A stretch of DNA of 64,000 nucleotides from Minisyncoccia bacterium (GCA_046598345.1 JBKJIT010000003.1:5089-69088), one strand, 5' to 3'. Shown: positions 24,598 through 44,281, counted from the stretch's first letter. Made by a program: numbers and translations. The notes: generated from the letters alone by a model not told the origin.

Positions 24598-24907
24598 ATC
24601 TCGAATGATTATTTTTTTAATTCATCTTTTACTCATCCTTATTATGTATGTGGATGTGTGGAAGGTTTAGTTTTAATGAGTAATTACATACTATTCTAAG
24701 GAAGCCTAGTTGTGTATTACTGTGGATTTGTGTGTGACTTGTGTGGTTAGGGTGTGTAGTACTTTATTAAATAATGTTTGGTGTTTGTAAAAAACCAAAC
24801 ATTCTCCACTTTTGTACATACTTCACCCTTCTCACACACAGAGATAGTACAAGTGATATCCCTCTGTAATCCACACTCATGAGACACAGTAAAAAACTGT
24901 AAAAGAA
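24598..24907. promoter_or_regulatory. Candidate oriC / DnaA-box cluster between dnaA and dnaN
   Basis: Several 7-8/9 matches to TTATCCACA or its complement (TGTGGATGT, TGTGGATTT, TAATCCACA) in an AT-rich spacer. Classic origin gene context. Confidence 0.4.
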
Positions 24908-26308: not shown

Positions 26309-26550
26309 GCATTATACCGGGCTGTGGAAAAGTGTAAATAGATATCGAAAAAACGAAGCAATGCGCCATGTTGCATAACTGCTGTGTACAAGATGTGGAG
26401 AACAAAAAATAGTTTGCATCAATTTTGTATGACACGCATTCGCAAATACAGTTTAAGAAATACGCATTTATTTCAAATAATCCTCGAAGATCATTCCTAT
26501 TGATTAAAAAGGACGCTTAGTGTACATTAAGCCACACAAAACATTCATAT

Positions 26551-26688
26551 ATGTCAAAGCGAACCTATCAACCAAAGAAGAAAAAGCGGGCAACAACCCA
26601 CGGTTTTCTCGTACGCAGCCAAAGCAAGACAGGTGCTAGGGTCCTCCGGGCGCGTCGCCGCAAGAAGCGTGCAAAACTGAGTGTTTAA
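26551..26688 (+). CDS. rpmH: 50S ribosomal protein L34
   Basis: [45 protein letters not shown]. Below the track's length cutoff; found by eye. Confidence 0.85.
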
Positions 26689-26702
26689 GCTACACTAGAA
26701 GC

Positions 26703-27035
26703 ATGCTAGCCAAAAAAGAACGATTGAGCCGAGAGACCTTCAATCGTTCTTTTTCGTTGGGAAAGCGGTTACACGGGACGACGCTCCAGCTCGTGTACTC
26801 GAAATCTGAGACACTCCATGGCGCTGTGGTGATTCCAAAAAAGATTGAACCCCGTGCAGTTATGCGGAACAAGCTTCGGCGTCGCGTCTACGATGCGCTC
26901 CGCCAGGTAGCTAAGGAGGAAGGGGTGATTGGTACATTTATCTTTATTTTTAAAGCGAAAAGTTCAGCGCGAGCGTTTACTGATTTGAAACAAGAGGTGT
27001 CTGAATTGGTACATACAGTGACAAAGCAAAGGTAA
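26703..27035 (+). CDS. rnpA: RNase P protein component
   Basis: Position after rpmH and basic RnpA motif KLRRRVYDALR. Confidence 0.8.
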   Translation: MLAKKERLSRETFNRSFSLGKRLHGTTLQLVYSKSETLHGAVVIPKKIEPRAVMRNKLRRRVYDALRQVAKEEGVIGTFIFIFKAKSSARAFTDLKQEVSELVHTVTKQR

Positions 27036-27060
27036 TCGACTATAGTAAGTCACGTTTTCT

Positions 27061-27807
27061 ATGTTTAGCTCAATTTGGCACGGAGTCTTCTTTGATCCGA
27101 TATACAACAGCCTCGTATTTTTTATCGATTCGTTGCCAAAGGGCGATGTTGGGCTCGCGATCATTGCTACTGTGGTACTCGTAAAGCTTATTCTTCTCCC
27201 CTTTTCCCTAAAAGTCGCGCGCACGCAGCTCATAATGCGAGAGATAGAGCCAAAGCTCAAAGAACTTAAAGAAAAGTATAAGGATCAGCGGGAAGAACAG
27301 GCTCGCCGCATGATGGAACTCTACCGGAATGCCGGGGTAAATCCCTTTTCAAGCATCCTGCTTCTTTTTCTCCAGATCCCTATTGTTATCGCCCTTTATT
27401 TCGCCGTCTCTACCGGTGGTGGTGTTTCACTTCCAAATATCAATATAGACCTTCTCTATTCATTCGTTCCGAAGCCAGAGACCGCCAATATGCTTTTCCT
27501 TGGAATTGTTGACATTGCAGGGAAAAGTCTTCTTCTTGCTCTTCTTGCAGGCATTACTCAGTACATTACCGGGCACCTTACCCTTCCCAAGCCTGAACCG
27601 CGTCTCGCAGACTCGAAACCCGATTTTAAAGACGATCTCGCGCGGAGCATGCAGCTTCAGATGCGCTACATGATGCCGATTCTTATCTTTGTTGTTGCCT
27701 ACACTATTTCAGCAGCGATTGCGCTCTACTTCGTGGTGAGTAACCTCATGGCAATTGCACAAGAAGTTGTCGTCCGACGCCAAGGTCTCAAACCAGCGAA
27801 AAAATAA
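27061..27807 (+). CDS. yidC: Membrane protein insertase YidC (short form)
   Basis: rpmH-rnpA-yidC synteny, multi-TM, YidC/Oxa1 core. Confidence 0.8.
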   Translation: MFSSIWHGVFFDPIYNSLVFFIDSLPKGDVGLAIIATVVLVKLILLPFSLKVARTQLIMREIEPKLKELKEKYKDQREEQARRMMELYRNAGVNPFSSILLLFLQIPIVIALYFAVSTGGGVSLPNINIDLLYSFVPKPETANMLFLGIVDIAGKSLLLALLAGITQYITGHLTLPKPEPRLADSKPDFKDDLARSMQLQMRYMMPILIFVVAYTISAAIALYFVVSNLMAIAQEVVVRRQGLKPAKK

Positions 27808-27877: not shown

Positions 27878-27934
27878 GAAACCCCGTCATATCCTATACG
27901 GTCCGGCCGGACCGTATAGGATATGACGGGGTTT
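27878..27934. terminator. Long perfect palindrome GAAACCCCGTCATATCCTATACGGTCCGG|CCGGACCGTATAGGATATGACGGGGTTTT between yidC and the convergent T4SS-like operon
   Basis: About 27-bp stem with T-run. Confidence 0.6.
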
Positions 27935-27974: not shown

Positions 27975-29126
27975 TTAGTCACCTCGCACCGAGGTGTCAT
28001 ACATCCAGAGGGTACCGTCGTTTTTGTTTATGAAATAGATGTAGTCTCCATTTGCACTTACACCAATCTTTGACACATCAACCTCTCGTCCACTTTCAAC
28101 TTCAAAATCACTGAGGAGTGCCCCCTCGCCAGATGTGATATTAATTTTCCAAAGACCATCGGAAAAGGAGACTATTCCTTTATACCAATCGTCTGGGTAC
28201 AGTGCTTCCGGCATTTTGAAGGGCGCTGCACAGATCAAATGTCCCCCCACGGGTTCCTCGGTGCATTTTTGAGGAAAGAGTGAGAGTGGAAGAGGACGTG
28301 TCTCAGCCGCTGACACATGTGAAGAAGTTAAACTACTTTCAGTAATTTTTGTCATACCGATGCCATACAGTGCAGGAAATGCCATAAGCCCAACCCCACC
28401 TGGAGCCACATATCCAAGGGAACCATTTGTGATTCGATAGAGGTGTCCAATCTGTGCCCCGCTCGGAGTGGTGTATACATATGTGTCTGTCCCCCATACA
28501 ATTTGTATGTCGCGTAGAGGGATTGAAAACAGCACGGAGGTTTGCCCGGTTCCTATGTGGTACTGCACACCCACCGTACCAATATCAGTCGGTTCAATAT
28601 ACGAAATGGTATTTTCCACTGTAAACGCCGCTTCCCGTGCGCGCGGGGGCAGCTGAAGTGTTTCAATTTTTCCTCCAGAACTATCTGAAACATACGTCCC
28701 TAACACAGTCTGTATTCCCGCTTCGGTATCATACGTAATAAGCACTCGTTCACCAGTTTCGTTAAAAATTGCATCTGTTGTACGTGGGAGGGTGGTGCCG
28801 CTGAGGAGCGTTTCATTGCCGCTTAACAGTTGTATTTCATAGAGATGGCCAGTTCCCCGTTCCATGTAGCGTACTCGTTCGCCGATAAAAACAGCACCCG
28901 CAACCGGACGTGTGGTTAGTTGTCGCAGTGCTTTGCGTGATGCTGTGTCATTACTCCCCCCATTTTGTGATGAACTCGGTTCAAAAACGCTTGGTGATCC
29001 AGAACCAAAATTAGCAAAGATGTCTTCCCCATTTTCGGGTGCACCAAACATAAACAAATATACCCATACAACCACAATAAGGAGGATAATGATGATGCCT
29101 GAAATAATGAGAATTGGTTTTTTCAT
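27975..29126 (-). CDS. Membrane-anchored extracytoplasmic protein (possible beta-propeller), last gene of T4SS-like operon
   Basis: N-terminal TM IISGIIIILLIVVVWVYLF. Start ATG 1 nt after the upstream stop. Confidence 0.5.
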   Translation of the reverse strand: MKKPILIISGIIIILLIVVVWVYLFMFGAPENGEDIFANFGSGSPSVFEPSSSQNGGSNDTASRKALRQLTTRPVAGAVFIGERVRYMERGTGHLYEIQLLSGNETLLSGTTLPRTTDAIFNETGERVLITYDTEAGIQTVLGTYVSDSSGGKIETLQLPPRAREAAFTVENTISYIEPTDIGTVGVQYHIGTGQTSVLFSIPLRDIQIVWGTDTYVYTTPSGAQIGHLYRITNGSLGYVAPGGVGLMAFPALYGIGMTKITESSLTSSHVSAAETRPLPLSLFPQKCTEEPVGGHLICAAPFKMPEALYPDDWYKGIVSFSDGLWKINITSGEGALLSDFEVESGREVDVSKIGVSANGDYIYFINKNDGTLWMYDTSVRGD

Positions 29127-29127
29127 A

Positions 29128-29910
29128 TTATGAACCGTTTGCTTTAGGGTACGTGCACACTGAACTTCTTTGATCAGGGTTGCTCACAAATGTACCCTTC
29201 AATTGTGTACATTGTGTTCTGCAGGGTCCGGGAGGGTAGTCAATGATCGGCTGACCACAATTTGTTTCTTCTGCTGTACAGCCACCAACAATTGTCGTCA
29301 CCGCTTCGTAGGTACATGTTTTTGTGGCAGTTTCATATACACAACCAGTGGTATTGTCAGTTGTGCTTTCAGTAAAGGTTCCACCCAGGGCTCTGCACTC
29401 ATTTGCACATAGGCTTATGTCGGCATTACTTTTCGAACAAATTTTTGTTGCGGTCGTCCCAGTCAACCCAGAATTTGTACCAGTTGTTCCCGCGGCGTCT
29501 TTGCTTTTAATAGTAATTGTTGGGGCGTTACCCAAGATATTTAAATTTGTGAGACCAGAATAGATGGTATTCAGTACCACAAATGGAATAAGGAGAATTC
29601 CCAAACCTTTTAATACACCCATAATGTCGTCTTTAGCCTCCTCCTTATTTGTGATCACGTCACCAAAAGCGTACTTCGCACCCGCAATGGTTATTTTAAT
29701 GGCCGCCGCGATGGCACCAATTATAATAAGAAACTTGTAGAGTTGATTTAAGTAGTTTGCGAGGCCCCCGGTAGATGTTGGTGTAATGCCCGGAATCCCC
29801 GCAAGAGGGACAAATTCATTTCCCGCAAACAAAGTAACCGGCAAGATAAGGTACATCACACTTAGGAGAATGAAAGTGGTTACGTTCCTGTGTTGTGAAA
29901 TAGTGTGCAT
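29128..29910 (-). CDS. VirB2/TrbC-like pilin with C-terminal Cys-rich (10 Cys) extension
   Basis: Signal peptide, then two hydrophobic helices separated by a short charged loop (LYKFLIIIGAIAAAIKITIAGAKYAF - GDVITNKEEAKDD - ILLIPFVVLNTIY). Start at MHTIS (29910), 1 nt after the upstream stop. Confidence 0.5.
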   Translation of the reverse strand: MHTISQHRNVTTFILLSVMYLILPVTLFAGNEFVPLAGIPGITPTSTGGLANYLNQLYKFLIIIGAIAAAIKITIAGAKYAFGDVITNKEEAKDDIMGVLKGLGILLIPFVVLNTIYSGLTNLNILGNAPTITIKSKDAAGTTGTNSGLTGTTATKICSKSNADISLCANECRALGGTFTESTTDNTTGCVYETATKTCTYEAVTTIVGGCTAEETNCGQPIIDYPPGPCRTQCTQLKGTFVSNPDQRSSVCTYPKANGS

Positions 29911-29911
29911 G

Positions 29912-30898
29912 TTATTTAAAGAAAACATCGAATGCACCTGCGACGTACGTGGGGATCTCTCCGACGTGTTTGAGTACATACCGGAATCCAAGATTCGCAG
30001 ACCCTTCGCCCCCAGTATGACGGAGAGTAATAGCATTCTGCTCACTGTTTCCAGGATTTACGGAGCTACCATTCATTGTCCACTCCGCATCCCCTTCCCC
30101 TCCAACATTACGAGTGTCCATAAAATACGGCTCAGCGAGAATGGTGGTTTCTTCCCCAGTCATTGTAAATGTGGGCGTGAGTGCCTTACGACTTAGTCCA
30201 CGGAGAGGATTTGTTTCATAAAAATACAGTTCAGGCTCTACTCCATTCAGAAGAATAATATTTCGGCCGAGAGTCGATCGATTAGTGTCGTACACCGTCA
30301 CCATAAGCCTATGGTCTGCATACGGGGGCATATCAAAAGTTACTGCATACTTTCCCTGTACTGGTCCGCCAAAGAGAACACTGCCATCGAGTGACCATTC
30401 ATAGGTGTAGCGTTCCGGGGCGGTGTTGGTTTTTCCATGCACAATTGCAATCGCACGAATAGGAGCATTCTCTGCCGGAAGTGCTCTCCCCTCATAGAAA
30501 TCGGGAACGCTCGTTTCCGCCTCAATAATAAGATCTACAGCACCGACTTGAATAGAAAGTTCCGTTTGAAGCGGGACACCATTTGAGGTCATTCGGACAC
30601 GTACCGTATGCTCGGTGCCAATTTTTCCGGTAGTAAACGAAATTGAACGCTCGTTTCTTCCTTCAATCATCTCCTTTCCGTCTACATACCAGAAGATGCT
30701 TGACCCTACTGTATTCATAGAATATGCATCGAGAGTAACGGTGACGGTGGAATTCGGTTGAGGAAAGCTTGGTACAGTAGAAAGTGAGATTTTACTCTGA
30801 TAGTCTGAAAGGGATTGTGCGTTCGATGGAGAACTTGAAAGAACAATGCTGCAGAGAAGCATTGCAAAAAAAAGTAGGCCGTTTCGAACGCGTACCAT
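29912..30898 (-). CDS. Secreted protein (signal peptide, beta-rich/Ig-like), T4SS-like operon
   Basis: MVRVRNGLLFFAMLLCSIVLSSSPSNA signal peptide. Confidence 0.5.
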   Translation of the reverse strand: MVRVRNGLLFFAMLLCSIVLSSSPSNAQSLSDYQSKISLSTVPSFPQPNSTVTVTLDAYSMNTVGSSIFWYVDGKEMIEGRNERSISFTTGKIGTEHTVRVRMTSNGVPLQTELSIQVGAVDLIIEAETSVPDFYEGRALPAENAPIRAIAIVHGKTNTAPERYTYEWSLDGSVLFGGPVQGKYAVTFDMPPYADHRLMVTVYDTNRSTLGRNIILLNGVEPELYFYETNPLRGLSRKALTPTFTMTGEETTILAEPYFMDTRNVGGEGDAEWTMNGSSVNPGNSEQNAITLRHTGGEGSANLGFRYVLKHVGEIPTYVAGAFDVFFK

Positions 30899-30924
30899 TA
30901 CCTCTAGTGTATCATTCGGAGTCG

Positions 30925-31824
30925 TCAACTGGCCGGGTTTTCGTGGATTAGTGCGACGGTAGATCTCACCTTTACAATTATGACCCAGATGAGAAGCCAG
31001 GGACCAATATTTGTTACGGGGAGAAAGCTCAGGGTAAAGCAAAGCGGCGTCAGTAGGGGGTGTTTTTTATTCACCTCAATCCCCGTAATGTAAAACGAAA
31101 TAATACAAGCGAGAAATACTCCAATGGTGATCAGTGCAGCGACACCCCAAAATGCCCACCCCAGTAAATCTGGTTGAAGCGCTGAATTGGCAAGGCTGAA
31201 TATCCAATTCGTGGCAAAGCCATGCCATGCGGTAGTTTTTGACCCTTCGATCGTGGCATATATTCCCCAGGCAATGAGTGTAATAAGTGCACAGATGAAT
31301 TGCCATACATACGCAGTTGCAACGAATCCAACTATTCCCCAACCCACAAGGCTTCGTGCCTGCTTTCCTTTTTGAGCAATTTGCTTCACCTGTCCCGCAG
31401 CACGCTGTGCATTGGCCAATCGCCCGCCTGCGCCCTCCAACCGTCTTGCCGTCTCTCCAGAACTTTGAGCACCACTGGTACTCTTCATTAGGGCAGTTTT
31501 TTCCTTGATATCTTGTGCAACACCCTTTTCTCCTGTCTCGGTTCGAAATCGCGCTGAAGAAGCAAGTGGGGATTCGTAGTGGGTCTCTACATTTTGTGGT
31601 GAAGACTGAGGTGAAGATTTGCGGACGGCGTGTCGGTGAAGGGTCCGCACCTTTTGTATAGAGTAGGAAGGGTCATTTGCGGCTTCTTCTCGTGAATCCC
31701 GGTCTCTAATTGCATCAGGATTATACCGATCCTCAAGCACGTGTTCCATTCCAGGTTGTTGATCAACACGACGAGGGTCTGCCCACGCATCATTTTTTCG
31801 TACCGTGCTCCTATCCCCTTTCAT
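30925..31824 (-). CDS. Membrane protein with hydrophilic N-terminal region and about 4 C-terminal TM helices, T4SS-like operon
   Basis: TM segments from LVGWGIVGFVATAYVWQFICALITLIAW onward. Confidence 0.5.
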   Translation of the reverse strand: MKGDRSTVRKNDAWADPRRVDQQPGMEHVLEDRYNPDAIRDRDSREEAANDPSYSIQKVRTLHRHAVRKSSPQSSPQNVETHYESPLASSARFRTETGEKGVAQDIKEKTALMKSTSGAQSSGETARRLEGAGGRLANAQRAAGQVKQIAQKGKQARSLVGWGIVGFVATAYVWQFICALITLIAWGIYATIEGSKTTAWHGFATNWIFSLANSALQPDLLGWAFWGVAALITIGVFLACIISFYITGIEVNKKHPLLTPLCFTLSFLPVTNIGPWLLIWVIIVKVRSTVALIHENPAS

Positions 31825-31846
31825 AATTGTTTATATGAGGCGTATG

Positions 31847-33643
31847 TTAGCCATTACCTTGAAGTTCCGCACGGGCATTCTTTATTTGGAGAATTTGTGA
31901 GGGATCAGAAGTAATGATTTGGTCTTCTGTGTAGGAAGCAATAACTTTAATCGCTACATGTTTTAGTCCTGCAAAGAAAATCCCTTCGCCAACTCCCGAC
32001 TCAAGGAGAAGAAACTTCTCTTCATCGGTAAGGTTGAATACACTTTGGAGCGTATCGACTGCGGTTGGCGATTGTTTCATAAGCATCTGCATAGATGAGT
32101 TCGTGATCATCGGGACTCCGTACGGTGAGCGGAGGAAGTCATCCACATCCTGCGTAATGGTCGCAATCCCGAGGTAATATTTGCGACCGCGCTTTGCAAG
32201 GCTGTGAAGGAATTCAGCCGTGTCGGGGGATTTGAGCATCCACCACGCCTCATCGATAACGAGGAGTCGCTTCTTCAGCTCTCTCCGGATCGCGCCCCAA
32301 ATGTGACTTGTAACGATGTACATCGCAATGGTTTTGAGTTCCTCCTCCATGTCTCGGAGAGAAAAGACGATAAAACGCTGGTTGATGTCGATGTTCGTGG
32401 ATTGATTGATGAATCCTGACCACGTACCTGAAGTATATTTTGACAGACGTTGTACGAGTGACTCACTTCCCTCCATACCTGCGAGAACCATTTCAAAGTC
32501 GGAGAGCAGTGGTGGTTCGAGGTTGGTGTAGTCATTATTACCAGTGATGTCCTTTAGTGCATATGTTTCGCGGAGTGCCTGGTCAATAATGGCATCTTCT
32601 TCAGGTGTAAGCCCTGAAAGCATGAGCTTAAAAAGTCCAACGAGCTCAATAATATGTGATCGGAGAAGGTCCTCAGGATTCTCGTCCGCCTGTGGAGGTG
32701 GAAGATCAAATGGATTAATGTGGTGGCTCGACGAGAGAGAAATATTGAAGAAACGTCCTCCAGTTGCCTCTGCGAGGTACTCGTACTCTCGTTCAGGATC
32801 GATCACGATAATCTCTGTACCAAACATGAGTGAGCGAAGAATCTCGAGCTTCAACGCATAGGATTTACCTGCACCGGAGGTAGCGAAAGTCACCGAGTTG
32901 TAATTGGGGAGAGAGAAACGGTCAAAGAGAACGAGCGATGAGTTGTGCCTGTTGATGCCGTAGAGAATACCCGTGTCTGAAGTAAGGTCAAATGAAGTGA
33001 ATGGGAAGAAGCTTGAGAGTGGTGAAGAGTTAAATTTGCTATGCACGAGCAGTTTGTCGCTCACCGTTGGAATAACGCTTGCAAATCCTTGCTCTTGCTG
33101 GAAGAGCGCTGGTTTAATGTAAATAAGTCGTGCATCGAGCGAGGTCTTAATTTCCGCTTCTGTTTTATTGAGTTCCGTTTCAGTATCTCCATAAATAGCC
33201 ACGTAGAGCCCCACATCAAAAAGTTTCTCTTCTGCTTGTTGGAGTTTGTCGCGAAGATCTTCCAGGTTGCGGTATGCTGCGTCAAGTTGTGGGTCACGCA
33301 CCTGGTGATGCTCTTCGCGCATATTTATCTGGCTCTGCACCTCTGCCACCTTCTTCGTAAATTTCTTTAATGTTTCAGCGGTACTAATGGGGTGAATGAT
33401 GATCGTGACATCGAGTTCGCGTTCAATATTGAGAATTGGCTCCATCCAACCATCGTTCAAGTACCGTGGGTAGGAAACCGCAAAAAACACACGTGCGAGC
33501 TTGCCACTTATGCTAATGCTCCTTGGATTAATGCTGATTGCGGCAGGCGCAACTACATCTTCCATAGTGAGCGGCGCATCGCTCCCCACGATTTCCATTT
33601 CGTCTTCCTTCTTATGTGGTTTTAATGCGTCAAAAATTCCCAT
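31847..33643 (-). CDS. VirB4/TrbE/TraC-family type IV secretion ATPase
   Basis: Walker A TSGAGKSYAL, Walker B LLVIDEAWWML, RKYYLGIATITQDVDDF. CagE/TrbE/VirB-type N-domain. Confidence 0.8.
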   Translation of the reverse strand: MGIFDALKPHKKEDEMEIVGSDAPLTMEDVVAPAAISINPRSISISGKLARVFFAVSYPRYLNDGWMEPILNIERELDVTIIIHPISTAETLKKFTKKVAEVQSQINMREEHHQVRDPQLDAAYRNLEDLRDKLQQAEEKLFDVGLYVAIYGDTETELNKTEAEIKTSLDARLIYIKPALFQQEQGFASVIPTVSDKLLVHSKFNSSPLSSFFPFTSFDLTSDTGILYGINRHNSSLVLFDRFSLPNYNSVTFATSGAGKSYALKLEILRSLMFGTEIIVIDPEREYEYLAEATGGRFFNISLSSSHHINPFDLPPPQADENPEDLLRSHIIELVGLFKLMLSGLTPEEDAIIDQALRETYALKDITGNNDYTNLEPPLLSDFEMVLAGMEGSESLVQRLSKYTSGTWSGFINQSTNIDINQRFIVFSLRDMEEELKTIAMYIVTSHIWGAIRRELKKRLLVIDEAWWMLKSPDTAEFLHSLAKRGRKYYLGIATITQDVDDFLRSPYGVPMITNSSMQMLMKQSPTAVDTLQSVFNLTDEEKFLLLESGVGEGIFFAGLKHVAIKVIASYTEDQIITSDPSQILQIKNARAELQGNG

Positions 33644-33662
33644 GGCATCTATATAGTAACGT

Positions 33663-34289
33663 CTATTGCTTGGGCGCGCTCGACATGTCTGTAGGATTAA
33701 AAATGTGGTAGTACAGCTCTATGAGCGCGTCGTTTCCTAGCGCCGCCGTACGCACCCCGATGCGCGATAGACCCTGCTCTACCACACTCACGCGCTGCTC
33801 AAGCTGACTCCGCTCTTCTGCAAATTTAGCAGCATCCATCCCCACACTTTTTTTCTTCGCTCCAATGTTGAGAAGGTCTTTAATTCCCGCAGTATCAATA
33901 CCACTCGGAGTGTAGGGCACAACGACGAAGAAGTTTTTAGACATAATGTCTACCTCTTCGGTAAACGAACGGATAAACTCCATGTATTCGCGGAGTTGAA
34001 TCTTCATGAGGTCGTTGTACTGGCCTGCCTCGTGCGAGCGGAGCACTTCCATGTATGGGCGAATGTCGAGACGACGAGATTGTATGTAGATCTGCAGTGA
34101 GAAATCAATGGTATTAAGGAATGATTGAAAGTTGGTGAGGATTGCCTCCTGTTCCGCCGCTGACTTGAGAGCAAAGTTGATCGACGATGCGAGGAGCACC
34201 ATGCACATTTGCCCATTTTTAAGTATGACAATTCCATCACGGATATCCTTGATGGGAACAAAATGTTGTGTGGGAGAAGTAGTTGCCAT
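33663..34289 (-). CDS. Soluble 208-aa protein immediately upstream of VirB4-like ATPase (possibly a split-off VirB4 N-terminal/accessory domain)
   Basis: 20-nt gap to the ATPase gene; no TM. Confidence 0.45.
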   Translation of the reverse strand: MATTSPTQHFVPIKDIRDGIVILKNGQMCMVLLASSINFALKSAAEQEAILTNFQSFLNTIDFSLQIYIQSRRLDIRPYMEVLRSHEAGQYNDLMKIQLREYMEFIRSFTEEVDIMSKNFFVVVPYTPSGIDTAGIKDLLNIGAKKKSVGMDAAKFAEERSQLEQRVSVVEQGLSRIGVRTAALGNDALIELYYHIFNPTDMSSAPKQ

Positions 34290-34291
34290 AC

Positions 34292-34702
34292 TTATTTAGT
34301 GTCGTTCATATTTAATTCAAGCTTGTGTGCGAGAGCTGCGAGATTTTGCTTTTGCATTGGAATATTCTCGGGAACCTCAACTGGCTCTTCACGCTTTGTC
34401 ACAATACTCTGCTCTTTTACCTTCCTCCAAAGATATAACTTGCTTCCACTAAAATAACTCACAAACGCCTCAAGAAACGATGAAAATGGACGATTATTGA
34501 CCTGGTGGAATGCAAGAAAACCTGCGAGGGAGGCAACGGGGATTGCGAATAGGAGGAATAGGAGGAATGGAAGCATAAAAAAGAGCACCACACAGAGCCC
34601 CACCCCACCCGCAACATACACAAACTGCTTCCAGGTAAGTGGGCCGACGATCTTGTCTTCAACGTCAATAAATTGAGGTACTTCAAAGCGCATACACCAC
34701 AT
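34292..34702 (-). CDS. VirB3/PrgI(TcpE)-like small 2-TM protein
   Basis: 136 aa, two adjacent TM helices (VYVAGGVGLCVVLFFMLPFLLFLLFAIPVASLAGFLAF), positioned just upstream of the VirB4-like gene. Confidence 0.45.
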   Translation of the reverse strand: MWCMRFEVPQFIDVEDKIVGPLTWKQFVYVAGGVGLCVVLFFMLPFLLFLLFAIPVASLAGFLAFHQVNNRPFSSFLEAFVSYFSGSKLYLWRKVKEQSIVTKREEPVEVPENIPMQKQNLAALAHKLELNMNDTK

Positions 34703-34742
34703 TGTATCCTACTTTTCCTCGAGCTTTATGAAGCCGTGCGGA

Positions 34743-35279
34743 TTATTCCTTCCCCTCGTTTTTTGCTGCATCAGCTTTTATGCGCGCAGCTTCAATATCA
34801 CTCGCCATCGTGCGCTTTGGAGAAAGTGCATTCATGAGTTCTTCGCGCGTAAGTGGTCGTGCCATTTCTTCAACAATCCCCACTTCTGGCGATACAGAGT
34901 TTTGTTTTTGCACGCCCTCGGGACGAAGATCTAGACGTTCTTTAGAATCTGAAATTTCAAAAGTTTGTTTCACCGCAGAAGAAGTATTCGCTCTCCCCTC
35001 AATTGGCTCTAGAAATTCTTTTAAGTCACTCGCGATTTTATCGGCTTCGTCTGAAGACACTTTTACGTTTTCAACCATAAGTTTTTTCAAGTCAGATATT
35101 GGATAGAAACCCAATATTATGTCTCCAACAACATTTATAAGGGCATACTTGTCTGATACAGAATATTTTTTGATGAGCGAAAGAAAAAGTTCACCACTCT
35201 CTTCCGAGCTATACATTGACGCATATGATTCAGGAAGTTGTGAGAACGCCGCTAAACGCATTTCTTTTGTGATTGTCAT
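34743..35279 (-). CDS. Soluble hypothetical protein, T4SS-like operon
   Basis: Start at MTITKEM (35279), 2 nt after the VirB6-like stop. Confidence 0.45.
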   Translation of the reverse strand: MTITKEMRLAAFSQLPESYASMYSSEESGELFLSLIKKYSVSDKYALINVVGDIILGFYPISDLKKLMVENVKVSSDEADKIASDLKEFLEPIEGRANTSSAVKQTFEISDSKERLDLRPEGVQKQNSVSPEVGIVEEMARPLTREELMNALSPKRTMASDIEAARIKADAAKNEGKE

Positions 35280-35281
35280 AT

Positions 35282-37489
35282 TTATTTTCCAAATTGAACT
35301 CCCAATGCAGAACTGAGCCAATTGTCTGCCGCGCTAAGGTAGGCGGCGTTAGGTAACGGAGGACCGCCCGCAGCTATTGCCGCGTTGTTTGCAGCGATAG
35401 CTGTTTCGAGTTGGGTCCTAATATGTGCCTGATCGACGGTATTTATTGTTGAGTCTTGAGCTATCTTAGCCAGAGCATTTACGGGAATTTCAGTGCTAAT
35501 CAGTTTCAATACTTCTGCGGGCATTTTTGCAATTTCTCCTGATTTTTGTTTAAGTATGTGATCCTTATCAAGTGTTGCTGGTGCCCCTGCTCTCATCGTA
35601 GCAATCGGAATGTTTTGAGCTAGCTGTTTCAGTGCATCTTCGCGTTTTTTAGAAAGATTACCAAACTCAGTTTTTGTAAACTTTTTCTTTAGATCATCCA
35701 TTTGCGAAGAGGTTAGACGTGCTGCATATTCAGGATCCTCAAGGAACTTTGCTCCAAGCCATTCAAGGTGCTCTGCACTTGCTTTCGCGAGAGAATCACG
35801 ATCTGCTTCGTATATCGCTTTAATTGCATCAGATTTCTTACCTTTAATTTTATTTTTTTCTTCCTCACTGAGTTCAGTGCTCTTGTCGAGTCCCTCAATT
35901 TGGCTTGTAGACAAGTCAGCCGCAATTGCTTCTCGCTCTTCTTGGCTGAGTCCCTCAAGGATCTTTGTGGTGGCGTCTGCAACTGCTCGCTCTTTTTTAA
36001 TACGAGCTACATCCCCAGCACTCCCCAGTGGCGCAGCTACACCCCCTGCGATAGCATCTTTGAGTTTTGCTTTTTCGCCACTCACCGTTCGCTCATTTTT
36101 AATCTCCTTTTTTTCCTTTTTTGCTTCTACACGTGACTGGGAGCTACCAAACTTAGCTTCTGCTCCCGCATGTGCAGCACCATACACTCCCGTTCCTCTC
36201 ATAAGACCCGCAGCTCGCTGTTGCCATTTATTATCGCTTTTACGCATATCTTCTTGTTTGTGTGCAATTGCATAGCCCAATCGTCCCACAGTGTTTCTCC
36301 CGGCAAATCCTTGAATACCCCCACGGATTTTGTTTGACCAGTCCTTTCCAAGTGACATTGCCTTGTCGGCACCCTTGATGCCAAATTCCTGTGCAATTTT
36401 GAGAGAAAAGATCAAGAACATGATGCTGATAATAAAAAGTAAGACGACATCAAACATTCCTGCGGAAGCAGCGGGGTTTCCTGCAAGTTGACCACTTCCT
36501 GAAAGGGCATCGGAAAGAGATTTCACTGGGTTTCCTTTTGCATCCAAATAATTTAGTGATTTGAACGCCCCATCAAGAATGTGAATAGAAATAAGAAGCA
36601 AAAATATGTATGCAGGTGCAAAGAAAGAGTAACTAATCAGTTTCGAAATAAGATCGTCCGCGTACTTTTTAGTTTGGGGAAATACTCTGGCCGCAAAAAT
36701 AATTGGGGAAAACACCATAATCAGTACAAGCGCAACGAAGCGGACAATGAGGAGAATGCCTCCTGCTGCAAGGACAAACCCCGCGATCATGAGAAACACT
36801 GCTCCCATCACAAAGAAGGCAAAACTCCCGCCGCCGGTGAGCTTGGCCGTTGCCTCTGGCTCCATGGTATTCCAGAAGGTTTGAATCCCCATAAGGCTTG
36901 CAAATTTTTCTGATATGTTTTTGTTGGTTGATCCCTTCAGCATGGTGGTGTAGGTCTCCACAGCAATGTAGTTTGAAACATCGATGACCACTTTTGTGAA
37001 AAAGAGACTGAAGTTAATGAGGAGAGCACCGATGATGATCGCGGCAAGCGTGCGTTTCACGTCAGCACTTTCTGAATCAAGGATGGTCCTGATACCCAAG
37101 TAAATAAATCCAAAGATAAAGGCAAGGTTCGCAAGGTCACGAATAGTAGTCCAGGCTGAATTAATAGCAACACCAAGATCCCCCTTCACTAATGCACCTA
37201 ACCCAAGCACCAACTTATCAATCGAAACTTCAAGAATCATTCCCCCCACCCACGTAGCCCGAGAGGCAACATAGAGAATCATGTTTCCGATTGTGTTTCC
37301 CATCATTGAGAGGATGTCCACTCCTCCTTGGGCTGCTGCTCCTCCTGCCACGGCAGCGGGGGGTGCAACCTCACCGGCCGCAAAAACAGTGTGTACTTCC
37401 AGAAAAAGTGCTGAAAACACAAATACGCAAGATAAAATTCCTAGAAGAATTTTTTGAATTTTTGTGTTGTGAGTGTTAACGGCAACCAT
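35282..37489 (-). CDS. VirB6/TrbL-like polytopic membrane protein with long C-terminal hydrophilic extension
   Basis: Signal/TM N-terminus, at least 6 TM helices in the first 400 aa, then a charged coiled region (K/E/A-rich). Confidence 0.55.
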   Translation of the reverse strand: MVAVNTHNTKIQKILLGILSCVFVFSALFLEVHTVFAAGEVAPPAAVAGGAAAQGGVDILSMMGNTIGNMILYVASRATWVGGMILEVSIDKLVLGLGALVKGDLGVAINSAWTTIRDLANLAFIFGFIYLGIRTILDSESADVKRTLAAIIIGALLINFSLFFTKVVIDVSNYIAVETYTTMLKGSTNKNISEKFASLMGIQTFWNTMEPEATAKLTGGGSFAFFVMGAVFLMIAGFVLAAGGILLIVRFVALVLIMVFSPIIFAARVFPQTKKYADDLISKLISYSFFAPAYIFLLLISIHILDGAFKSLNYLDAKGNPVKSLSDALSGSGQLAGNPAASAGMFDVVLLFIISIMFLIFSLKIAQEFGIKGADKAMSLGKDWSNKIRGGIQGFAGRNTVGRLGYAIAHKQEDMRKSDNKWQQRAAGLMRGTGVYGAAHAGAEAKFGSSQSRVEAKKEKKEIKNERTVSGEKAKLKDAIAGGVAAPLGSAGDVARIKKERAVADATTKILEGLSQEEREAIAADLSTSQIEGLDKSTELSEEEKNKIKGKKSDAIKAIYEADRDSLAKASAEHLEWLGAKFLEDPEYAARLTSSQMDDLKKKFTKTEFGNLSKKREDALKQLAQNIPIATMRAGAPATLDKDHILKQKSGEIAKMPAEVLKLISTEIPVNALAKIAQDSTINTVDQAHIRTQLETAIAANNAAIAAGGPPLPNAAYLSAADNWLSSALGVQFGK

Positions 37490-37492
37490 ACT

Positions 37493-39076
37493 TTATGGAG
37501 CAAATGGGGTACGCAAATCAACAGCAATTGAACAGTCGGATGCGACGGGGCAGGTAAGTGTCGGTCCAGTCGCATTTCGGACATTCACGTACACAGTGCT
37601 GCCTGGAGTTAAATTCGCCTGTGTTCCTGATACATTTCCATTAATTGAGAAGGTGATGCCGGCGCTCGGCGTTCCACCACTTCGTGTGTCTGGGTATTCT
37701 GTCGTTGTAAAATTACACGGAACGCTGGAGACATTGTATTCGCGAGAGACACTAACGGGTGTCACTGTTTGTCCTTCAGTATCGCTGTACGCTGGCAAAG
37801 TGAAAATATCAACCGTGCCTGCCTTTTTCGGCAATTCCCCATTAAATGAGGCTGGGATCTGGAGCTTGATAGCCACATTAGAATTACCCGCTCCCGTCAT
37901 TAACACTTTTCCCATCTCAACACCATCATCTACTGGCCAATCCAAAATCGCTTCGTAACACGAATTACTCTGAGATCCTACAACAGTCTGGCGCACATCT
38001 TGGTAGGTCGGGGTTTCTGGTCGTGGGGTATTATCCACGTAACTATACCCCTCCGTCGTAGTGGCCAGGGTGCTACTTCCCACCCTATCGAGATAACTAA
38101 GTCCACTCCCGTTCTTTGAATTCGTAAGACCAACGAGCCCGCCGGCCTCTTTCATTGCCATTTTTGCAAGTTGTGTAAAAAGCGCTGCAATAATTTCGTT
38201 GATTTCGTCTGCAACCATGATGCGATCCACGGGAATGCCAAGAGTTCTATCGAGCGTATCTTTTATGGTGCTTCCTGGTGTGACTGTTTGACACTCTTGT
38301 ACTCCGGCAGCCGGGCCTTCGGTAATGGTAAAACACTCTTGCCTACTTAAAAACCCATTTCCAAAATCAAGACGCTTATACTCCTGCCCGCGTGCGTTAG
38401 AAAGCCGTTCTGAAAGTTCCCATTGCCCCAAAAGCATTGCCCCATACGGATTGTTCTGAGCATTTGTAGTCATTTGAAACCATCCATCCCACCCCCCAGC
38501 GAGGAAATTACCATTCATGAAACTCTCTACATTACTCGTAACTTTTGAAAGTGTACATGCCTGAGCGGAGCCCTTCCCAAAATCTCTTCCGGACTTGTAT
38601 TGCAAATTGAGTGCGAGCTTAATGTCGAGTTGAAGTGGAGAACAAAGAAAGTTGAGTGCCGTGCCTTCGAGAAAGTTCCCTGCAACCTCATCCCCAATGC
38701 CCTGCATAAACCCTCCCAAGTTCGTCACAAACGCTGGACTTCCTTGGAAGCCCGAATTAATCCAGTTGATTGTTTCCTGTGTAAGTTGTTGAAGGATAAG
38801 GTTAACTGCATACCAGGCAACGCCATCAAGCCAACCCTCTTTCATTTTAAGATATTCATTCGCCCAGGCAGAAATTGCTGCCTGTGCACCGGTGTACCAC
38901 GCACCAATTGCAGTCACAGCAGTCTCTATATCTGCGATTAAATCTGCGACTATCCATTGTGCATTTGCTGTTGGGGTTTTGTGTGTAGGGGCATATGCGC
39001 CACCAATAAGCGAAAGTACAATGAAGAGTGAGAGAATGAACTTTGCACAGCGCTTTGTAAAGAAGTCTTTCATCAT
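37493..39076 (-). CDS. Large secreted protein (527 aa, signal peptide, Cys pairs), T4SS-like operon
   Basis: MMKDFFTKRCAKFILSLFIVLSLIGGAYA signal. ATGA overlap with the upstream gene. Confidence 0.5.
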   Translation of the reverse strand: MMKDFFTKRCAKFILSLFIVLSLIGGAYAPTHKTPTANAQWIVADLIADIETAVTAIGAWYTGAQAAISAWANEYLKMKEGWLDGVAWYAVNLILQQLTQETINWINSGFQGSPAFVTNLGGFMQGIGDEVAGNFLEGTALNFLCSPLQLDIKLALNLQYKSGRDFGKGSAQACTLSKVTSNVESFMNGNFLAGGWDGWFQMTTNAQNNPYGAMLLGQWELSERLSNARGQEYKRLDFGNGFLSRQECFTITEGPAAGVQECQTVTPGSTIKDTLDRTLGIPVDRIMVADEINEIIAALFTQLAKMAMKEAGGLVGLTNSKNGSGLSYLDRVGSSTLATTTEGYSYVDNTPRPETPTYQDVRQTVVGSQSNSCYEAILDWPVDDGVEMGKVLMTGAGNSNVAIKLQIPASFNGELPKKAGTVDIFTLPAYSDTEGQTVTPVSVSREYNVSSVPCNFTTTEYPDTRSGGTPSAGITFSINGNVSGTQANLTPGSTVYVNVRNATGPTLTCPVASDCSIAVDLRTPFAP

Positions 39077-39951
39077 TGTTCAAAAAGATACATAAGTGCA
39101 CCAGCCTCTTCGTTAGAAAAAGAAATGTCGTTAGCTTTAAAAACATTCACCATTTCTCCAGCTGTTGTGAAGAAAGCCTGTAAATCATCTTGGTAACGAT
39201 TTGCGCGCGCAAGACCGAAGAGGGGATCTTCGAACATGCCCTTCATAGCAACGAGATCGAAACGGACTGCCTCATACCCATTTATAAATCCAAGGTGCAC
39301 ATCTATAAGATTCACTGGAGTTGGTACTGCGAGCATCTCTTTGATCATTGTTTCGTACGCATCGATACTTGGTTGGAGTTTTTCAATAAGCTCACGGTCA
39401 TTTGTCTGAAGTGCCTTTAGGAGGGTCTGCCCATTTCCATCCCCAGAGTTGTCGGCGGGATACATGCCTACAATGCGGAAAATTTCATTTGCATACATGC
39501 GCATGCTTTCTTCCGAGACAGGAATGATGGTGAGCTCAAGTCGTGAATGCCGTTTACTTTCGGTATTTTGTTCGATTGCTTCCACCGCAGTGTCTATAAA
39601 TGCCGTGGGATCTTCAAACGATTCCCCACTCCCCTTACGCGACATGTAGTCTTGGAAAAATGCGACCGCAAACTTTCCCGTGAAGGTCGTGGGTGGCGTG
39701 TAGCTCGCCACTCCCGCGAGAAGTGTTGACGATGCTGATACTGAAGGGATGATGTTTTTGCTTATCTCGTCCTCCCAGTCCGGAGTACCATTTTGATCCG
39801 CATCAATTTCCCGGATGTGGTTTTTTTCAGGAGCTTGAATCACCAGTGCTGCTTGCGAAATTGCTTCGTCTCCGGTGCGTGCATAAAAGGCTATTGCGAT
39901 AAGTGCAACACCACAGAGTACCGCTCCTCCTATACGAATAATGCCTTTCAC
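39073..39951 (-). CDS. N-terminally anchored extracytoplasmic protein, first gene of T4SS-like operon (VirB8/TcpC-like topology)
   Basis: TM GGAVLCGVALIAIAFYA followed by a 270-aa soluble domain. Confidence 0.45.
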   Translation of the reverse strand: MKGIIRIGGAVLCGVALIAIAFYARTGDEAISQAALVIQAPEKNHIREIDADQNGTPDWEDEISKNIIPSVSASSTLLAGVASYTPPTTFTGKFAVAFFQDYMSRKGSGESFEDPTAFIDTAVEAIEQNTESKRHSRLELTIIPVSEESMRMYANEIFRIVGMYPADNSGDGNGQTLLKALQTNDRELIEKLQPSIDAYETMIKEMLAVPTPVNLIDVHLGFINGYEAVRFDLVAMKGMFEDPLFGLARANRYQDDLQAFFTTAGEMVNVFKANDISFSNEEAGALMYLFEQ

Positions 39952-40030: not shown

Positions 40031-40858
40031 TTACTGCGTGCTTTGTGGGTTATCTGTGGAAAGAATTGCGTCAGCGAGTGTAAGCCACGATTCGATAGAA
40101 AGGTCCTCCCCACGAACGTCGAGAGCGAGACCCAGTGTGGAAAAAATGTGGGTAAGCACTGCTCTGTCCATTACTTTTGAAAGATTCCCAAGGAGCTGCT
40201 TGCGTTTTGAGGCAAATCCATGATGAAGGAGCTTAAAAAATTCCTCTTCCCGGAGTTTTGCAAAAGATGCGTGGGAAATGTTCTCAATGAGTAAAATAGC
40301 AGATTCAACGTTCGGTGGTGGTGAAAAATTTCCCCTCCTCACGGTGGTTACGTACTTTGGCTTCCCGTACGCTTTCACACTGAGCGAAAGAAGGGATTCT
40401 TTTTTGTCCCTCGCAATACGCTCCGCAACCTCCTTTTGGACGAGAAATACAATATCGGACGGCTGCATATCGGTCTCGAGAAATATTCGAAAGAGCATCC
40501 CTGAGAGAAAATATGGGATATTCGCTACTACTTTGTAGGAATGTTCAGGTAGCTTAAGGTCGTGGAGGGAAAAAGTGCGAATGTCTTTGTGCATGAGCGT
40601 CAGCTGTTTTGATGTCAGGTAGGAAGCAAAATCATTGGTGAGCGATTCGATTGCTCGCAGATCAGTTTCGATGGCGATTACCACCCCTCCCCGTTCAAGT
40701 AACTCCCTCGTCAGTACACCAGTGCCTGGCCCAATTTCCACAATAGTTTCACCTGACACTACGCGTGCAGCGTCCACCATTCGTTTTGGAACGCCGCGGT
40801 TATTCAGAAAATGCTGTCCGAGAGATTTTTTAGGAGCAATTTTTCCAAGCCCTTTCAT
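40031..40858 (-). CDS. rsmA: 16S rRNA (adenine1518/1519-N6)-dimethyltransferase
   Basis: LGQHFLNNRGVPKRMV, EIGPGTGVLT SAM motif. Confidence 0.85.
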   Translation of the reverse strand: MKGLGKIAPKKSLGQHFLNNRGVPKRMVDAARVVSGETIVEIGPGTGVLTRELLERGGVVIAIETDLRAIESLTNDFASYLTSKQLTLMHKDIRTFSLHDLKLPEHSYKVVANIPYFLSGMLFRIFLETDMQPSDIVFLVQKEVAERIARDKKESLLSLSVKAYGKPKYVTTVRRGNFSPPPNVESAILLIENISHASFAKLREEEFFKLLHHGFASKRKQLLGNLSKVMDRAVLTHIFSTLGLALDVRGEDLSIESWLTLADAILSTDNPQSTQ

Positions 40859-42846: not shown

Positions 42847-43205
42847 CTATAGCATGAGCGCTCCTTTGGGGATGTGAAAAGTGTATGAAAAGGCTTTAAG
42901 CCATTATTACACAATAAGATTTAAAGTTTGCATATAGCTACAAAATGGCGTTTCCAAAGGGTTAAATTGAGTTTTTTATCACACTGTGGACAACGATTTT
43001 TGGCAAGGTTGCTACTCGTCCCTATTCCGATATCATAGTGAAGTACTGATGAAGTGGTACAGAAAAAAAGGGGGTCTACGATCCGCTTTTTTATTTCGGT
43101 AATTGCTGTAATGGAAGTATTGCGGAGAGTCCATAACATTTGCATATAGAATCTCACTACAAAAAATCTGATACCTCCCATAAGCGTTCGGGTACAAGAG
43201 GTCAG

Positions 43206-44228: not shown

Positions 44229-44235
44229 AAATATG

Positions 44236-44269: not shown

Positions 44270-44281
44270 CGTAATGTTTTT

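What the first reader, a model, noticed from the sequence alone, without database searches (positions are those of the whole stretch)
27975..39951. An 11-gene type IV secretion-like operon (VirB4, VirB6-like, VirB3-like, VirB2-like pilin plus six secreted or anchored proteins) with no coupling protein or relaxase
Eleven co-directional genes on the minus strand are packed with ATGA overlaps or 1-3-nt TAA-N-ATG junctions (39076/39073, 35282/35279, 29912/29910, 29128/29126), so they form one transcription unit. Gene order along the operon is:
- a TM-anchored protein;
- a 527-aa secreted protein;
- a VirB6/TrbL-like polytopic protein with a long C-terminal extension;
- a soluble protein;
- a 2-TM VirB3/PrgI-like protein;
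- a 208-aa protein;
- a VirB4-family ATPase with clear Walker A/B and RKxx...TQ motifs;
- a 4-TM protein;
- a secreted Ig-like protein;
- a VirB2-like pilin;
- an anchored extracytoplasmic protein.
Nothing resembling VirD4/TcpA, VirB11 or a relaxase is present, and the flanks are housekeeping genes (yidC on one side, ksgA on the other). It is therefore not a typical integrated conjugative element but a chromosomal secretion or pilus apparatus. In a reduced, surface-protein-rich genome this kind of machine is a strong candidate for host-cell interaction. Most components are too divergent to name from sequence alone.
Basis: partly seen in the sequence, partly recalled or inferred. Interest (0 to 1): 0.8.

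Follow-up and report, generated by a model that had tools for sequence, protein, structure and literature searches.

The report
Patescibacteria chromosomal type IV secretion cluster
The eleven genes are real and form the coupling-protein-less, relaxase-less type IV secretion and pilus gene cluster that ultrasmall Patescibacteria keep next to their replication origin; this system was published in 2023-2025, so this is a correct rediscovery, not a new system.

Summary
Eleven tightly packed minus-strand genes (27975-39951) lie between ksgA and the convergent rpmH-rnpA-yidC operon, 1.7 kb from dnaA.

Five genes are T4SS core parts:
- VirB4 ATPase, which passes the NCBIfam CD1110 cutoff (best solved relative 4AG5, no FtsK/HerA match).
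- The 208-aa protein, a TrsD-type piece matching the VirB4 N-terminus.
- PrgI/VirB3.
- An extended VirB6/TrbL.
- A VirB2-like pilin.

The other six are lineage-specific envelope proteins. They include a four-helix-bundle anchor, a secreted protein with a variable C-terminus, a multi-TM protein, an Ig-like protein and a TolB-like propeller.

The order uvrD-ksgA-cluster-yidC-dnaA-dnaN recurs in about 80 Paceibacteria-type MAG species. The cluster is therefore vertically inherited and not an ICE. No T4CP, relaxase or VirB11 was found among the window ORFs scanned.

This matches the Patescibacteria T4SS described by Wang et al. 2023 (essential for epibiotic growth in Saccharibacteria) and Quinonero-Coronel et al. 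2025 (about 2,400 genomes; TrsD, PrgI, VirB6 and pilin near virB4; no relaxase; near dnaA and ksgA).

Small additions: cysteine-rich C-terminal extensions on the pilins, and pilin homology to Mycoplasma ICE pilin-like proteins.

The parts
39073..39951 (-). Gene 1, 292 aa (GTG start): N-terminal TM anchor plus an extracytoplasmic all-alpha four-helix-bundle domain. Lineage-specific accessory protein. It is not VirB8-like.
37493..39076 (-). Gene 2, 527 aa: Sec-secreted protein with a conserved, mostly helical N-terminal module of about 320 aa (four conserved Cys) and a variable C-terminus. Function unknown; possibly a surface or host-binding component.
35282..37489 (-). Gene 3, 735 aa: extended VirB6/TrbL-like polytopic membrane protein with a hydrophilic, Ala/Lys-rich C-terminal tail of about 364 aa.
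   Evidence: PF04610 TrbL 34.7 bits (gathering score 25.9), residues 144-315. Seven hydrophobic stretches in the KD scan, the longer ones possibly holding two helices; tail residues 372-735. The median tail in 62 sequences is about 376 aa.
34743..35279 (-). Gene 4, 178 aa: soluble protein of unknown role, fast-evolving.
   Evidence: No TM segment. No family match. Sequence homologues in only 17 of 81 loci.
34292..34702 (-). Gene 5, 136 aa (or 133 aa): PrgI/VirB3-like protein with a two-TM hairpin.
   Evidence: PF12666 PrgI 39.6 bits (gathering score 27). Hydrophobic hairpin at residues 24-68. Present in 78 of 81 loci at 36-66% identity.
33663..34289 (-). Gene 6, 208 aa: TrsD-type protein, the separately encoded N-terminal piece of VirB4.
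   Evidence: Matches model positions 2-129 of NF045971, 103-233 of NF045975 (E 5.6e-10), 5-170 of TIGR00929, and TrsD NF041427 (E 4.9e-5). Coverage is collinear and non-overlapping with gene 7. PF26593 TraC-like in precomputed hits. Separate ORF in 80 of 81 loci at 45-79% identity.
31847..33643 (-). Gene 7, 598 aa: VirB4-family ATPase of MPF_FATA (CD1110) type.
   Evidence: NF045971 363.7 bits (cutoff 325). PF19044 P-loop_TraG 88 bits against DUF87/HerA 29 bits. PDB 4AG5 E 1.8e-40, then TrwK; no FtsK/HerA match. P-loop ATSGAGKS read from the translation. Walker B LLVIDE at 460 and RKYY...TQD at 487. 67-89% identical in 80 species.
30925..31824 (-). Gene 8, 299 aa: hydrophilic N-terminal half plus 3-4 C-terminal TM helices. 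The position is conserved but the sequence is not.
   Evidence: TM segments at 162-186, 219-252 and 265-286. A multi-TM ORF occupies the same slot downstream of virB4 in most loci. Only 6 loci match by sequence.
29912..30898 (-). Gene 9, 328 aa: secreted protein with Ig-like beta-sandwich repeats.
   Evidence: Signal peptide. Family profile hits phage Hoc Ig-like domains at E 1.3e-4. Weak BiPBP_C match at E 4e-4. Present in 74 of 81 loci.
29128..29910 (-). Gene 10, 260 aa (alternative start gives 242 aa): VirB2/TrbC-like pilin (signal peptide plus two TM helices) fused to a 142-aa C-terminal extension with 10 Cys, predicted to be extracellular.
   Evidence: PF18895 T4SS_pilin 20.1 bits (below the gathering score of 26.6) and TrbC 18.1 bits. 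38 of 40 homologues match PF18895, best E 9e-10. 30 of 40 match NF045849, the Mycoplasma ICE pilin-like family, best E 4.9e-10. The extension is present in 38 of 40 homologues, median 164 aa, mostly with even Cys counts.
27975..29126 (-). Gene 11, 383 aa: N-terminal TM anchor plus an extracytoplasmic TolB-like beta-propeller.
   Evidence: TM at residues 1-32. Family profile hits TolB propellers at E 2e-5. Invariant K287-C288, C299, W314. Present in 65 of 81 loci.
27883..27930 (.). Perfect 20-bp-stem hairpin between the last cluster gene and the convergent yidC. Likely a bidirectional terminator that marks the 3' end of the transcription unit.

Best explanation
[quoted passage not shown] It is a derivative of the monoderm MPF_FATA conjugation machinery that has lost, or never had in cis, a coupling protein and a relaxase.

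Proposed working (inferred):
- The extended VirB6 and the VirB3/PrgI hairpin form the membrane platform.
- The VirB4 ATPase, encoded in two pieces (TrsD-type N-terminal piece plus the 598-aa ATPase), docks on that platform.
- VirB4 extracts the Sec-inserted VirB2-like pilin from the membrane and polymerises it into a pilus or tube through the cell wall.
- The pilin's Cys-rich C-terminal domains face outward.
- The membrane-anchored or secreted accessory proteins build or decorate the extracytoplasmic part and contact the host cell. These are the four-helix-bundle protein, the 527-aa protein with a variable C-terminus, the Ig-like protein and the TolB-like propeller.
- The apparatus serves the epibiotic interface (attachment and passage of macromolecules), not conjugation.

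My confidence by step is 0.9 for the identity of the system, about 0.6 for pilus assembly, and about 0.6 for a host-interface role. Direction and substrate are unknown.
For: Shown here:
- Core homologies: VirB4 above the curated cutoff, TrbL and PrgI above Pfam gathering scores, the TrsD-type piece collinear with the VirB4 N-terminus, and family-wide pilin matches.
- Tight packing and a terminal hairpin.
- uvrD-ksgA-cluster-yidC-dnaA-dnaN synteny in about 80 species, all Patescibacteria MAGs.
- No compositional island: GC 0.44-0.48 in the cluster, within the window's range of 0.41-0.51.
- No T4CP, relaxase or VirB11 among the window ORFs scanned. No recurrent extra large ORF in the +/-10 kb flanks of 80 loci.
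- Signal peptides, TM anchors and conserved Cys in the accessory proteins.

From the literature:
- The same component set (VirB4, TrsD, PrgI, VirB6, VirB2-like), the lack of a relaxase, and the proximity to dnaA/dnaN/ksgA/rnpA/rpmH were reported for about 2,400 genomes (PMC12102498).
- Homologous T4SS and pilin genes are essential for epibiotic growth of Southlakia epibionticum (PMC10633639).
- The review in PMC12857230 covers these systems.
Against: - No experiment exists for any Paceibacteria system. Pilus formation has not been seen, even in Saccharibacteria.
- The window's own pilin scores below Pfam gathering scores, and its 142-aa extension is atypical for a polymerising VirB2.
- No VirB8-like or VirB1-like gene lies inside the cluster. 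Gene 1 is not NTF2-like.
- A VirD4-like gene may exist elsewhere in the genome. The 2025 paper finds such homologues in most genomes, far from virB4. One related MAG (L058) has one next to virB4.
- Only 64 kb of the genome was visible.
Confidence: 0.82

Rival explanations
1. The same machine works inward, as a DNA or nucleotide importer. It would be analogous to the Helicobacter ComB system or the archaeal Ced system and would feed a cell that cannot make nucleotides.
For: - Absence of a relaxase and of a T4CP in cis is also typical of ComB-type uptake systems (established knowledge).
- The authors of PMC12102498 favour import of DNA or other macromolecules.
- The ATPase domain has a weak CedB match, E 5.5e-9.
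Against: - The CedB score is 35 bits against a cutoff of 700, which reflects only generic ATPase similarity.
- No ComB- or Ced-specific components were found.
- In S. epibionticum, comEC deletion abolishes competence without loss of viability, while the T4SS remains essential. Essentiality is therefore not explained by transformation.
- Nothing in this window speaks to direction.
Confidence: 0.12
2. The cluster is the mating-pair-formation module of an integrated conjugative element. Its T4CP, relaxase and oriT lie elsewhere in the genome.
For: - VirB4 is of the conjugative MPF_FATA (CD1110) type.
- VirD4-like genes are common elsewhere in Patescibacteria genomes.
- One relative (L058) has a VirD4-like gene beside virB4.
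- A tyrosine recombinase lies at 52289-53233.
Against: - The position between ksgA and yidC/dnaA is identical in about 80 species, and identity decays in step with the flanking housekeeping genes.
- There is no GC anomaly.
- No relaxase or T4CP was found among the window ORFs scanned, and none recurs in the flanks of 80 loci.
- Relaxases occur in only 103 of 3,035 genomes.
- The recombinase is 12 kb away among housekeeping genes and looks XerC/D-like.
Confidence: 0.03
3. The system is a Ptl-like exporter. Substrates first cross the membrane by the Sec pathway, and the T4SS then releases them or mounts them on the surface without a coupling protein. The co-encoded secreted proteins would themselves be the cargo.
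For: - Six of the eleven products have signal peptides or single N-terminal anchors.
- T4CP-less protein-secreting T4SSs exist, such as Bordetella Ptl and Brucella VirB.
Against: - The Ptl logic depends on an outer membrane, which a monoderm lacks. A Sec-exported protein is already outside the membrane.
- The accessory proteins are conserved in position like structural parts.
Confidence: 0.03

Closest known systems
Patescibacteria-clade T4SS (Quinonero-Coronel et al. 2025, PMC12102498; Saccharibacteria locus SEML1_0006-0019 of Wang et al. 2023, PMC10633639)
   Same: - VirB4 of MPF_FATA ancestry, with an adjacent TrsD homologue, PrgI/VirB3, VirB6 and a VirB2-like pilin.
- No relaxase or T4CP in cis.
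- Chromosomal location near dnaA, dnaN, ksgA, rnpA and rpmH, as reported for Paceibacteria.
   Different: - There is a single pilin gene, not the six-gene array of S. epibionticum.
- No peptidase or lysozyme gene lies immediately downstream of virB4. The nearest is a LysM-M23 peptidase 3.2 kb upstream on the other strand.
- The six accessory proteins and the Cys-rich pilin extension are not described in those papers.
Monoderm conjugative MPF_FATA T4SS, CTn2/CD1110 and pGO1 (TrsD/TrsE) subclasses, and Mycoplasma ICE (Mbov_0395 pilin-like, Mbov_0397 VirB4)
   Same: - VirB4 passes the CD1110 equivalog cutoff, and its second-best match is Mbov_0397 (265 bits).
- A separate TrsD-like N-terminal piece is present, as in pGO1.
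- A PrgI-type VirB3 is present.
- Pilin homologues match the Mycoplasma ICE pilin-like family in 30 of 40 cases.
   Different: - No relaxase, T4CP, VirB1-type hydrolase, VirB8-like protein or LPXTG adhesin is present.
- The cluster is not mobile and sits at a fixed housekeeping locus.
T4CP-less T4SSs of diderms (Bordetella Ptl, Brucella VirB, Helicobacter ComB)
   Same: They work without a VirD4 coupling protein or a relaxase, and serve secretion or DNA uptake, not conjugation.
   Different: - Those systems have the outer-membrane core (VirB7/9/10), and some also have VirB11.
- They belong to MPF_T, not to MPF_FATA.

Membership tests
Patescibacteria-clade T4SS (PMC12102498) | VirB4 of MPF_FATA ancestry | tested here: met
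   NF045971 (CD1110 family) 363.7 bits against a cutoff of 325. Next best is the Mycoplasma ICE VirB4 at 265 bits. PDB 4AG5 at E 1.8e-40.
Patescibacteria-clade T4SS (PMC12102498) | VirB4 falls inside the monophyletic Patescibacteria clade | tested here: inconclusive
   No tree with reference classes could be built. The 80 loci kept out of 585 tblastn-confirmed relatives (67-89% identity) carry Patescibacteria or unclassified-MAG titles.
Patescibacteria-clade T4SS (PMC12102498) | TrsD, PrgI/VirB3, VirB6 and a VirB2-like pilin encoded near virB4 | tested here: met
   All lie within 4 genes of virB4.
Patescibacteria-clade T4SS (PMC12102498) | No relaxase or T4CP associated with virB4 | tested here: met
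   None in the cluster and none among the other window ORFs scanned (30 of about 50 ORFs of 120 aa or more outside the cluster). The rest of the genome was not visible.
Patescibacteria-clade T4SS (PMC12102498) | Chromosomal position near dnaA, dnaN, ksgA, rnpA and rpmH (Paceibacteria pattern) | tested here: met
   ksgA is 79 nt upstream. yidC, rnpA, rpmH, dnaA and dnaN lie within 4.5 kb downstream. The arrangement is conserved in 50 or more loci.
Conjugative element (ICE or plasmid MPF module) | Relaxase, T4CP, and evidence of mobility (variable insertion site, integrase, compositional island) | tested here: not met
   No relaxase or T4CP. Fixed locus in about 80 species. Uniform GC.
VirB4/TraC ATPase family | Walker A, Walker B and a C-terminal ATPase domain that scores above FtsK/HerA-type models | tested here: met
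   ATSGAGKS (read from the translation), LLVIDE and RKYY..TQD. P-loop_TraG 88 bits against DUF87 29 bits. No FtsK/HerA chain among PDB matches.
VirB4/TraC ATPase family | N-terminal domain and ATPase domain in one polypeptide | tested here: not met
   The N-terminal 130-170 model positions are on the separate 208-aa ORF. The split is conserved in 80 of 81 loci, as in the pGO1 TrsD/TrsE arrangement.
VirB2/TrbC pilin | Signal peptide plus a two-helix hydrophobic hairpin, and a family-model match | tested here: inconclusive
   The topology fits. The window protein scores 20.1 and 18.1 bits, below the gathering scores of 26.6 and 27.9. However, 38 of 40 homologues match PF18895, with a best E of 9e-10. 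The 142-aa C-terminal extension is atypical.
VirB8-like (NTF2-fold) component of monoderm T4SS | Bitopic protein with an NTF2-like alpha+beta ectodomain | tested here: not met
   Gene 1 is an all-alpha four-helix bundle. Gene 11 is propeller-like. Gene 9 is Ig-like.
Ced/ComB-type DNA import system | CedB/CedA or ComB-specific components | tested here: not met
   CedB scores 35 bits against a cutoff of 700. No other Ced or ComB match was found.

The most novel reading that the evidence does not exclude
In Paceibacteria the T4SS may build a decorated pilus. Each VirB2-like subunit would carry a variable, disulfide-rich C-terminal domain on the outside. The conserved secreted 527-aa protein, with its swappable C-terminal modules (Ig-like or discoidin in relatives), would act as a VirB5-like tip or host-recognition factor. 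The TolB-like propeller, the Ig-like protein and the four-helix-bundle anchor would replace the missing VirB8 and VirB1 layer. This would be a host-range-determining envelope complex not yet described for any T4SS. The pilin itself would be inherited from the MPF_FATA ancestor, as shown by homology to Mycoplasma ICE pilin-like proteins, and not co-opted from diderm systems.
Probability: 0.25. Interest if true: 0.55.

Novelty: already known. Interest (0 to 1): 0.25.

Why it matters
Patescibacteria make up a large share of bacterial diversity and live on other microbes. Their T4SS is one of the few machines shown to be essential for that lifestyle, in one Saccharibacteria species, yet its substrate and direction are unknown.

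This window adds a clean, complete Paceibacteria example with well-defined boundaries. It also gives a list of six conserved but unnamed envelope proteins that any structural or genetic study of the machine would need to account for.

It does not open a new question. The system, its lack of a relaxase and T4CP, and its position at the origin are already published.

Tried and rejected
- **Gene 2 as VirB5/TrbJ-like.** This idea came from its position just upstream of virB6 and from weak TrbJ hits in 2 of 38 homologues. Profile searches of PDB at E up to 10 found no TraC or TrwJ. It stays a lead only. An attempt to fetch R388, RP4 and pTiC58 for a VirB5 profile failed because those accessions are not in the plasmid collection.
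- **Gene 1 as VirB8-like.** Rejected, because the model is an all-alpha bundle.
- **TrsD-family profile against PDB.** No match. The pilin profile also gave no PDB match.
- **T4CP in relatives.** Among ORFs of at least 300 aa in 80 loci that lack a window homologue, only one locus (L058) has a VirD4-like protein. That protein has no homologue in the window or in the other loci.
- **DnaA boxes.** Boxes with at most one mismatch are not enriched in the window.
- **Public names.** Exact-sequence look-ups returned no public name or accession for these proteins.
- **Rest of the genome.** The 341.7-kb NCBI contig could not be reached with the tools.


Full report
**Observation**

The region 27975-39951 holds eleven minus-strand ORFs of 292, 527, 735, 178, 136, 208, 598, 299, 328, 260 and 383 aa. 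An identical Logan contig carries the same gene calls.

The junctions are -4, 3, 2, 40, 2, 19, 22, 26, 1 and 1 nt. A perfect 20-bp-stem hairpin at 27883-27930 separates the last gene from the convergent yidC. No comparable structure lies inside the cluster.

uvrD (40897-42846) and ksgA (40031-40858) are co-directional, with gaps of 38 and 79 nt and no terminator. The transcript may therefore begin upstream of the eleven genes. GC content is 0.44-0.48 across the cluster, within the window's range of 0.41-0.51.

**Core components**

- **VirB4.** The 598-aa protein scores 363.7 bits against NCBIfam NF045971 (VirB4-like, CD1110 family; cutoff 325). It scores 265 bits against the Mycoplasma ICE VirB4 model. 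In Pfam, P-loop_TraG gives 88 bits against 29 bits for the HerA-type DUF87.
- Its best solved relatives are the Thermoanaerobacter VirB4 C-terminal domain 4AG5 (E 1.8e-40) and R388 TrwK. No FtsK or HerA chain appears. The P-loop ATSGAGKS (read from the translation), Walker B LLVIDE and RKYY...TQD are present.
- **TrsD-type piece.** The 598-aa protein starts at model position 184. The two ORFs together make one VirB4. This split is conserved in 80 of 81 loci, so it is not a frameshift.
- **PrgI/VirB3** scores 39.6 bits (gathering score 27), and **TrbL/VirB6** scores 34.7 bits (gathering score 25.9). Both pass Pfam thresholds. VirB6 carries a hydrophilic tail of about 364 aa, as do most of its homologues.
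- **Pilin.** It is sub-threshold on its own (20.1 bits). However, 38 of 40 homologues match PF18895, and 30 of 40 match the Mycoplasma ICE pilin-like family NF045849.

**Accessory proteins**

- **Gene 2** is Sec-secreted. It has a conserved N-terminal module of about 320 aa with four conserved cysteines, and a variable C-terminus. Some homologues carry Ig-like or discoidin domains. Its model is poor and its fold is unassigned.
- **Gene 8** is a fast-evolving multi-TM protein. Its slot downstream of virB4 is filled in most relatives.
- **Gene 9** is a secreted Ig-like protein.
- **Gene 11** is a TM-anchored TolB-like propeller.
- **Gene 4** is a soluble protein with no match to any family.

**Context and inheritance**

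A scan of 185,579 species genomes found 585 tblastn-confirmed VirB4 relatives. The 80 loci kept (67-89% identity) carry Patescibacteria MAG or unclassified-MAG titles, such as Kaiserbacteria, Nomurabacteria and Paceibacteria.

In these loci the order uvrD-ksgA-genes 1 to 11-yidC(convergent)-dnaA-dnaN recurs. Identities fall in step with the housekeeping flanks. The only rearrangement is a swap of the pilin and propeller genes.

The window itself shows rpmH-rnpA-yidC and dnaA-dnaN right next to the cluster. This is a vertically inherited chromosomal locus beside the presumed origin, not an island.

No T4CP, relaxase or VirB11 was found among the window ORFs scanned, which were the cluster plus 30 of the roughly 50 other ORFs of 120 aa or more. 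The only related ATPase is a PilB-type T2SSE protein with an MshEN domain at 15018-16694. Among 80 related loci, only L058 has a VirD4-like gene beside virB4.

**Comparison with the literature**

Wang et al. 2023 (PMC10633639) described an unusual T4SS in Southlakia epibionticum:
- It resembles Gram-positive conjugative systems but has pilin genes.
- It lacks a recognisable coupling protein and relaxase.
- It is essential in Tn-seq.

Quinonero-Coronel et al. 2025 (PMC12102498) surveyed 3,035 genomes and reported:
- VirB4 is present in 2,417 of them, mostly in one clade nested in MPF_FATA.
- TrsD, PrgI, VirB6 and VirB2-like genes lie near virB4.
- Relaxases occur in only 103 genomes.
- In Paceibacteria the cluster lies close to dnaA, dnaN, ksgA, rnpA and rpmH.

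A 2025 review lists these systems as a recognised T4SS type (PMC12857230). The finding is therefore a correct, independent rediscovery.

**Mechanism**

Shown: the homologies, the topology signals, the synteny and the absence of conjugation genes in cis.

Inferred:
- VirB6 and VirB3 form the membrane platform for the two-piece VirB4.
- VirB4 polymerises the pilin into a surface pilus or tube.
- The extracytoplasmic accessory proteins and the Cys-rich pilin domains face the host.

Direction and substrate remain open. Import of DNA or other macromolecules, which the 2025 authors favour, is the main functional rival.

**Small additions beyond the papers read**

- The pilin C-terminal extension is family-wide, with a median of 164 aa and mostly even Cys counts.
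- Homology of the pilins to the Mycoplasma ICE pilin-like family suggests a pilin already existed within MPF_FATA.
- The six conserved accessory proteins are catalogued here.

**Verdict**

Interest is 0.25.

Noticed in passing
window 29128-29910 and homologues in L002-L081: 38 of 40 VirB2-like pilin homologues carry a C-terminal extension after the second TM helix (median 164 aa, mostly even Cys counts of 4-20). This feature is not mentioned in the papers read. 30 of 40 match the Mycoplasma ICE 'Mbov_0395 pilin-like' family, so a pilin may be native to MPF_FATA.
   Followed up: partly
L058:428-3196 (minus strand; JBBTSH010000006.1): One related MAG has a 923-aa VirD4-like protein (TraG-D_C 25 bits, T4SS-DNA_transf 21.3 bits, DUF87 27 bits) divergent from PrgI-TrsD-VirB4, at the start of the contig where genes 1-4 would otherwise lie. 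It has no homologue in the window or in the other 79 loci.
   Followed up: partly
window 43140-44228 (+): A LysM-LysM-Peptidase_M23 cell-wall hydrolase lies divergent from uvrD, 3.2 kb upstream of the cluster. It is a candidate stand-in for the missing VirB1. The 2025 paper notes M23/LysM domains among VirB1-like hits, and VirB1 association with virB4 in Paceibacteria.
   Followed up: no
window 15018-16694 (+): A PilB/GspE-type ATPase (T2SSE 370 bits, MshEN domain) sits next to ruvB/ruvC-like genes, apparently without adjacent pilus genes. It belongs to the same superfamily as VirB11, but its N-terminal domain marks it as a type IV pilus ATPase.
   Followed up: no
window 23506-27807: Classic origin neighbourhood: dnaN and dnaA on the minus strand, then rpmH (26551-26688), rnpA (26703-27035) and yidC (27061-27807) on the plus strand. 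DnaA boxes with at most one mismatch are not enriched; only two lie in the dnaA-rpmH spacer (26323, 26394).
   Followed up: partly
window 27883-27930 and 44232-44273: Two long perfect palindromic hairpins (20-bp and 19-bp stems) lie between convergent genes. They look like bidirectional terminators.
   Followed up: no
window 37493-39076 and homologues: In the gene 2 family the N-terminal ~320 aa are conserved, while the C-terminus varies between species. It is helical in most, beta-rich or unmodelled here, and carries Ig-like or F5/8 type C domains in a few. This pattern is typical of receptor-binding proteins.
   Followed up: partly
L009, L013, L015-L034 and others versus the window: The order of the pilin and TolB-like propeller genes is swapped in many relatives (Ig-propeller-pilin instead of Ig-pilin-propeller).
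   Followed up: no
window 3-2633 (-) and 46217-48058 (-): A large surface protein with a GBS_Bsp-like repeat runs off the window start. A 613-aa ORF has no Pfam match at all.
   Followed up: no
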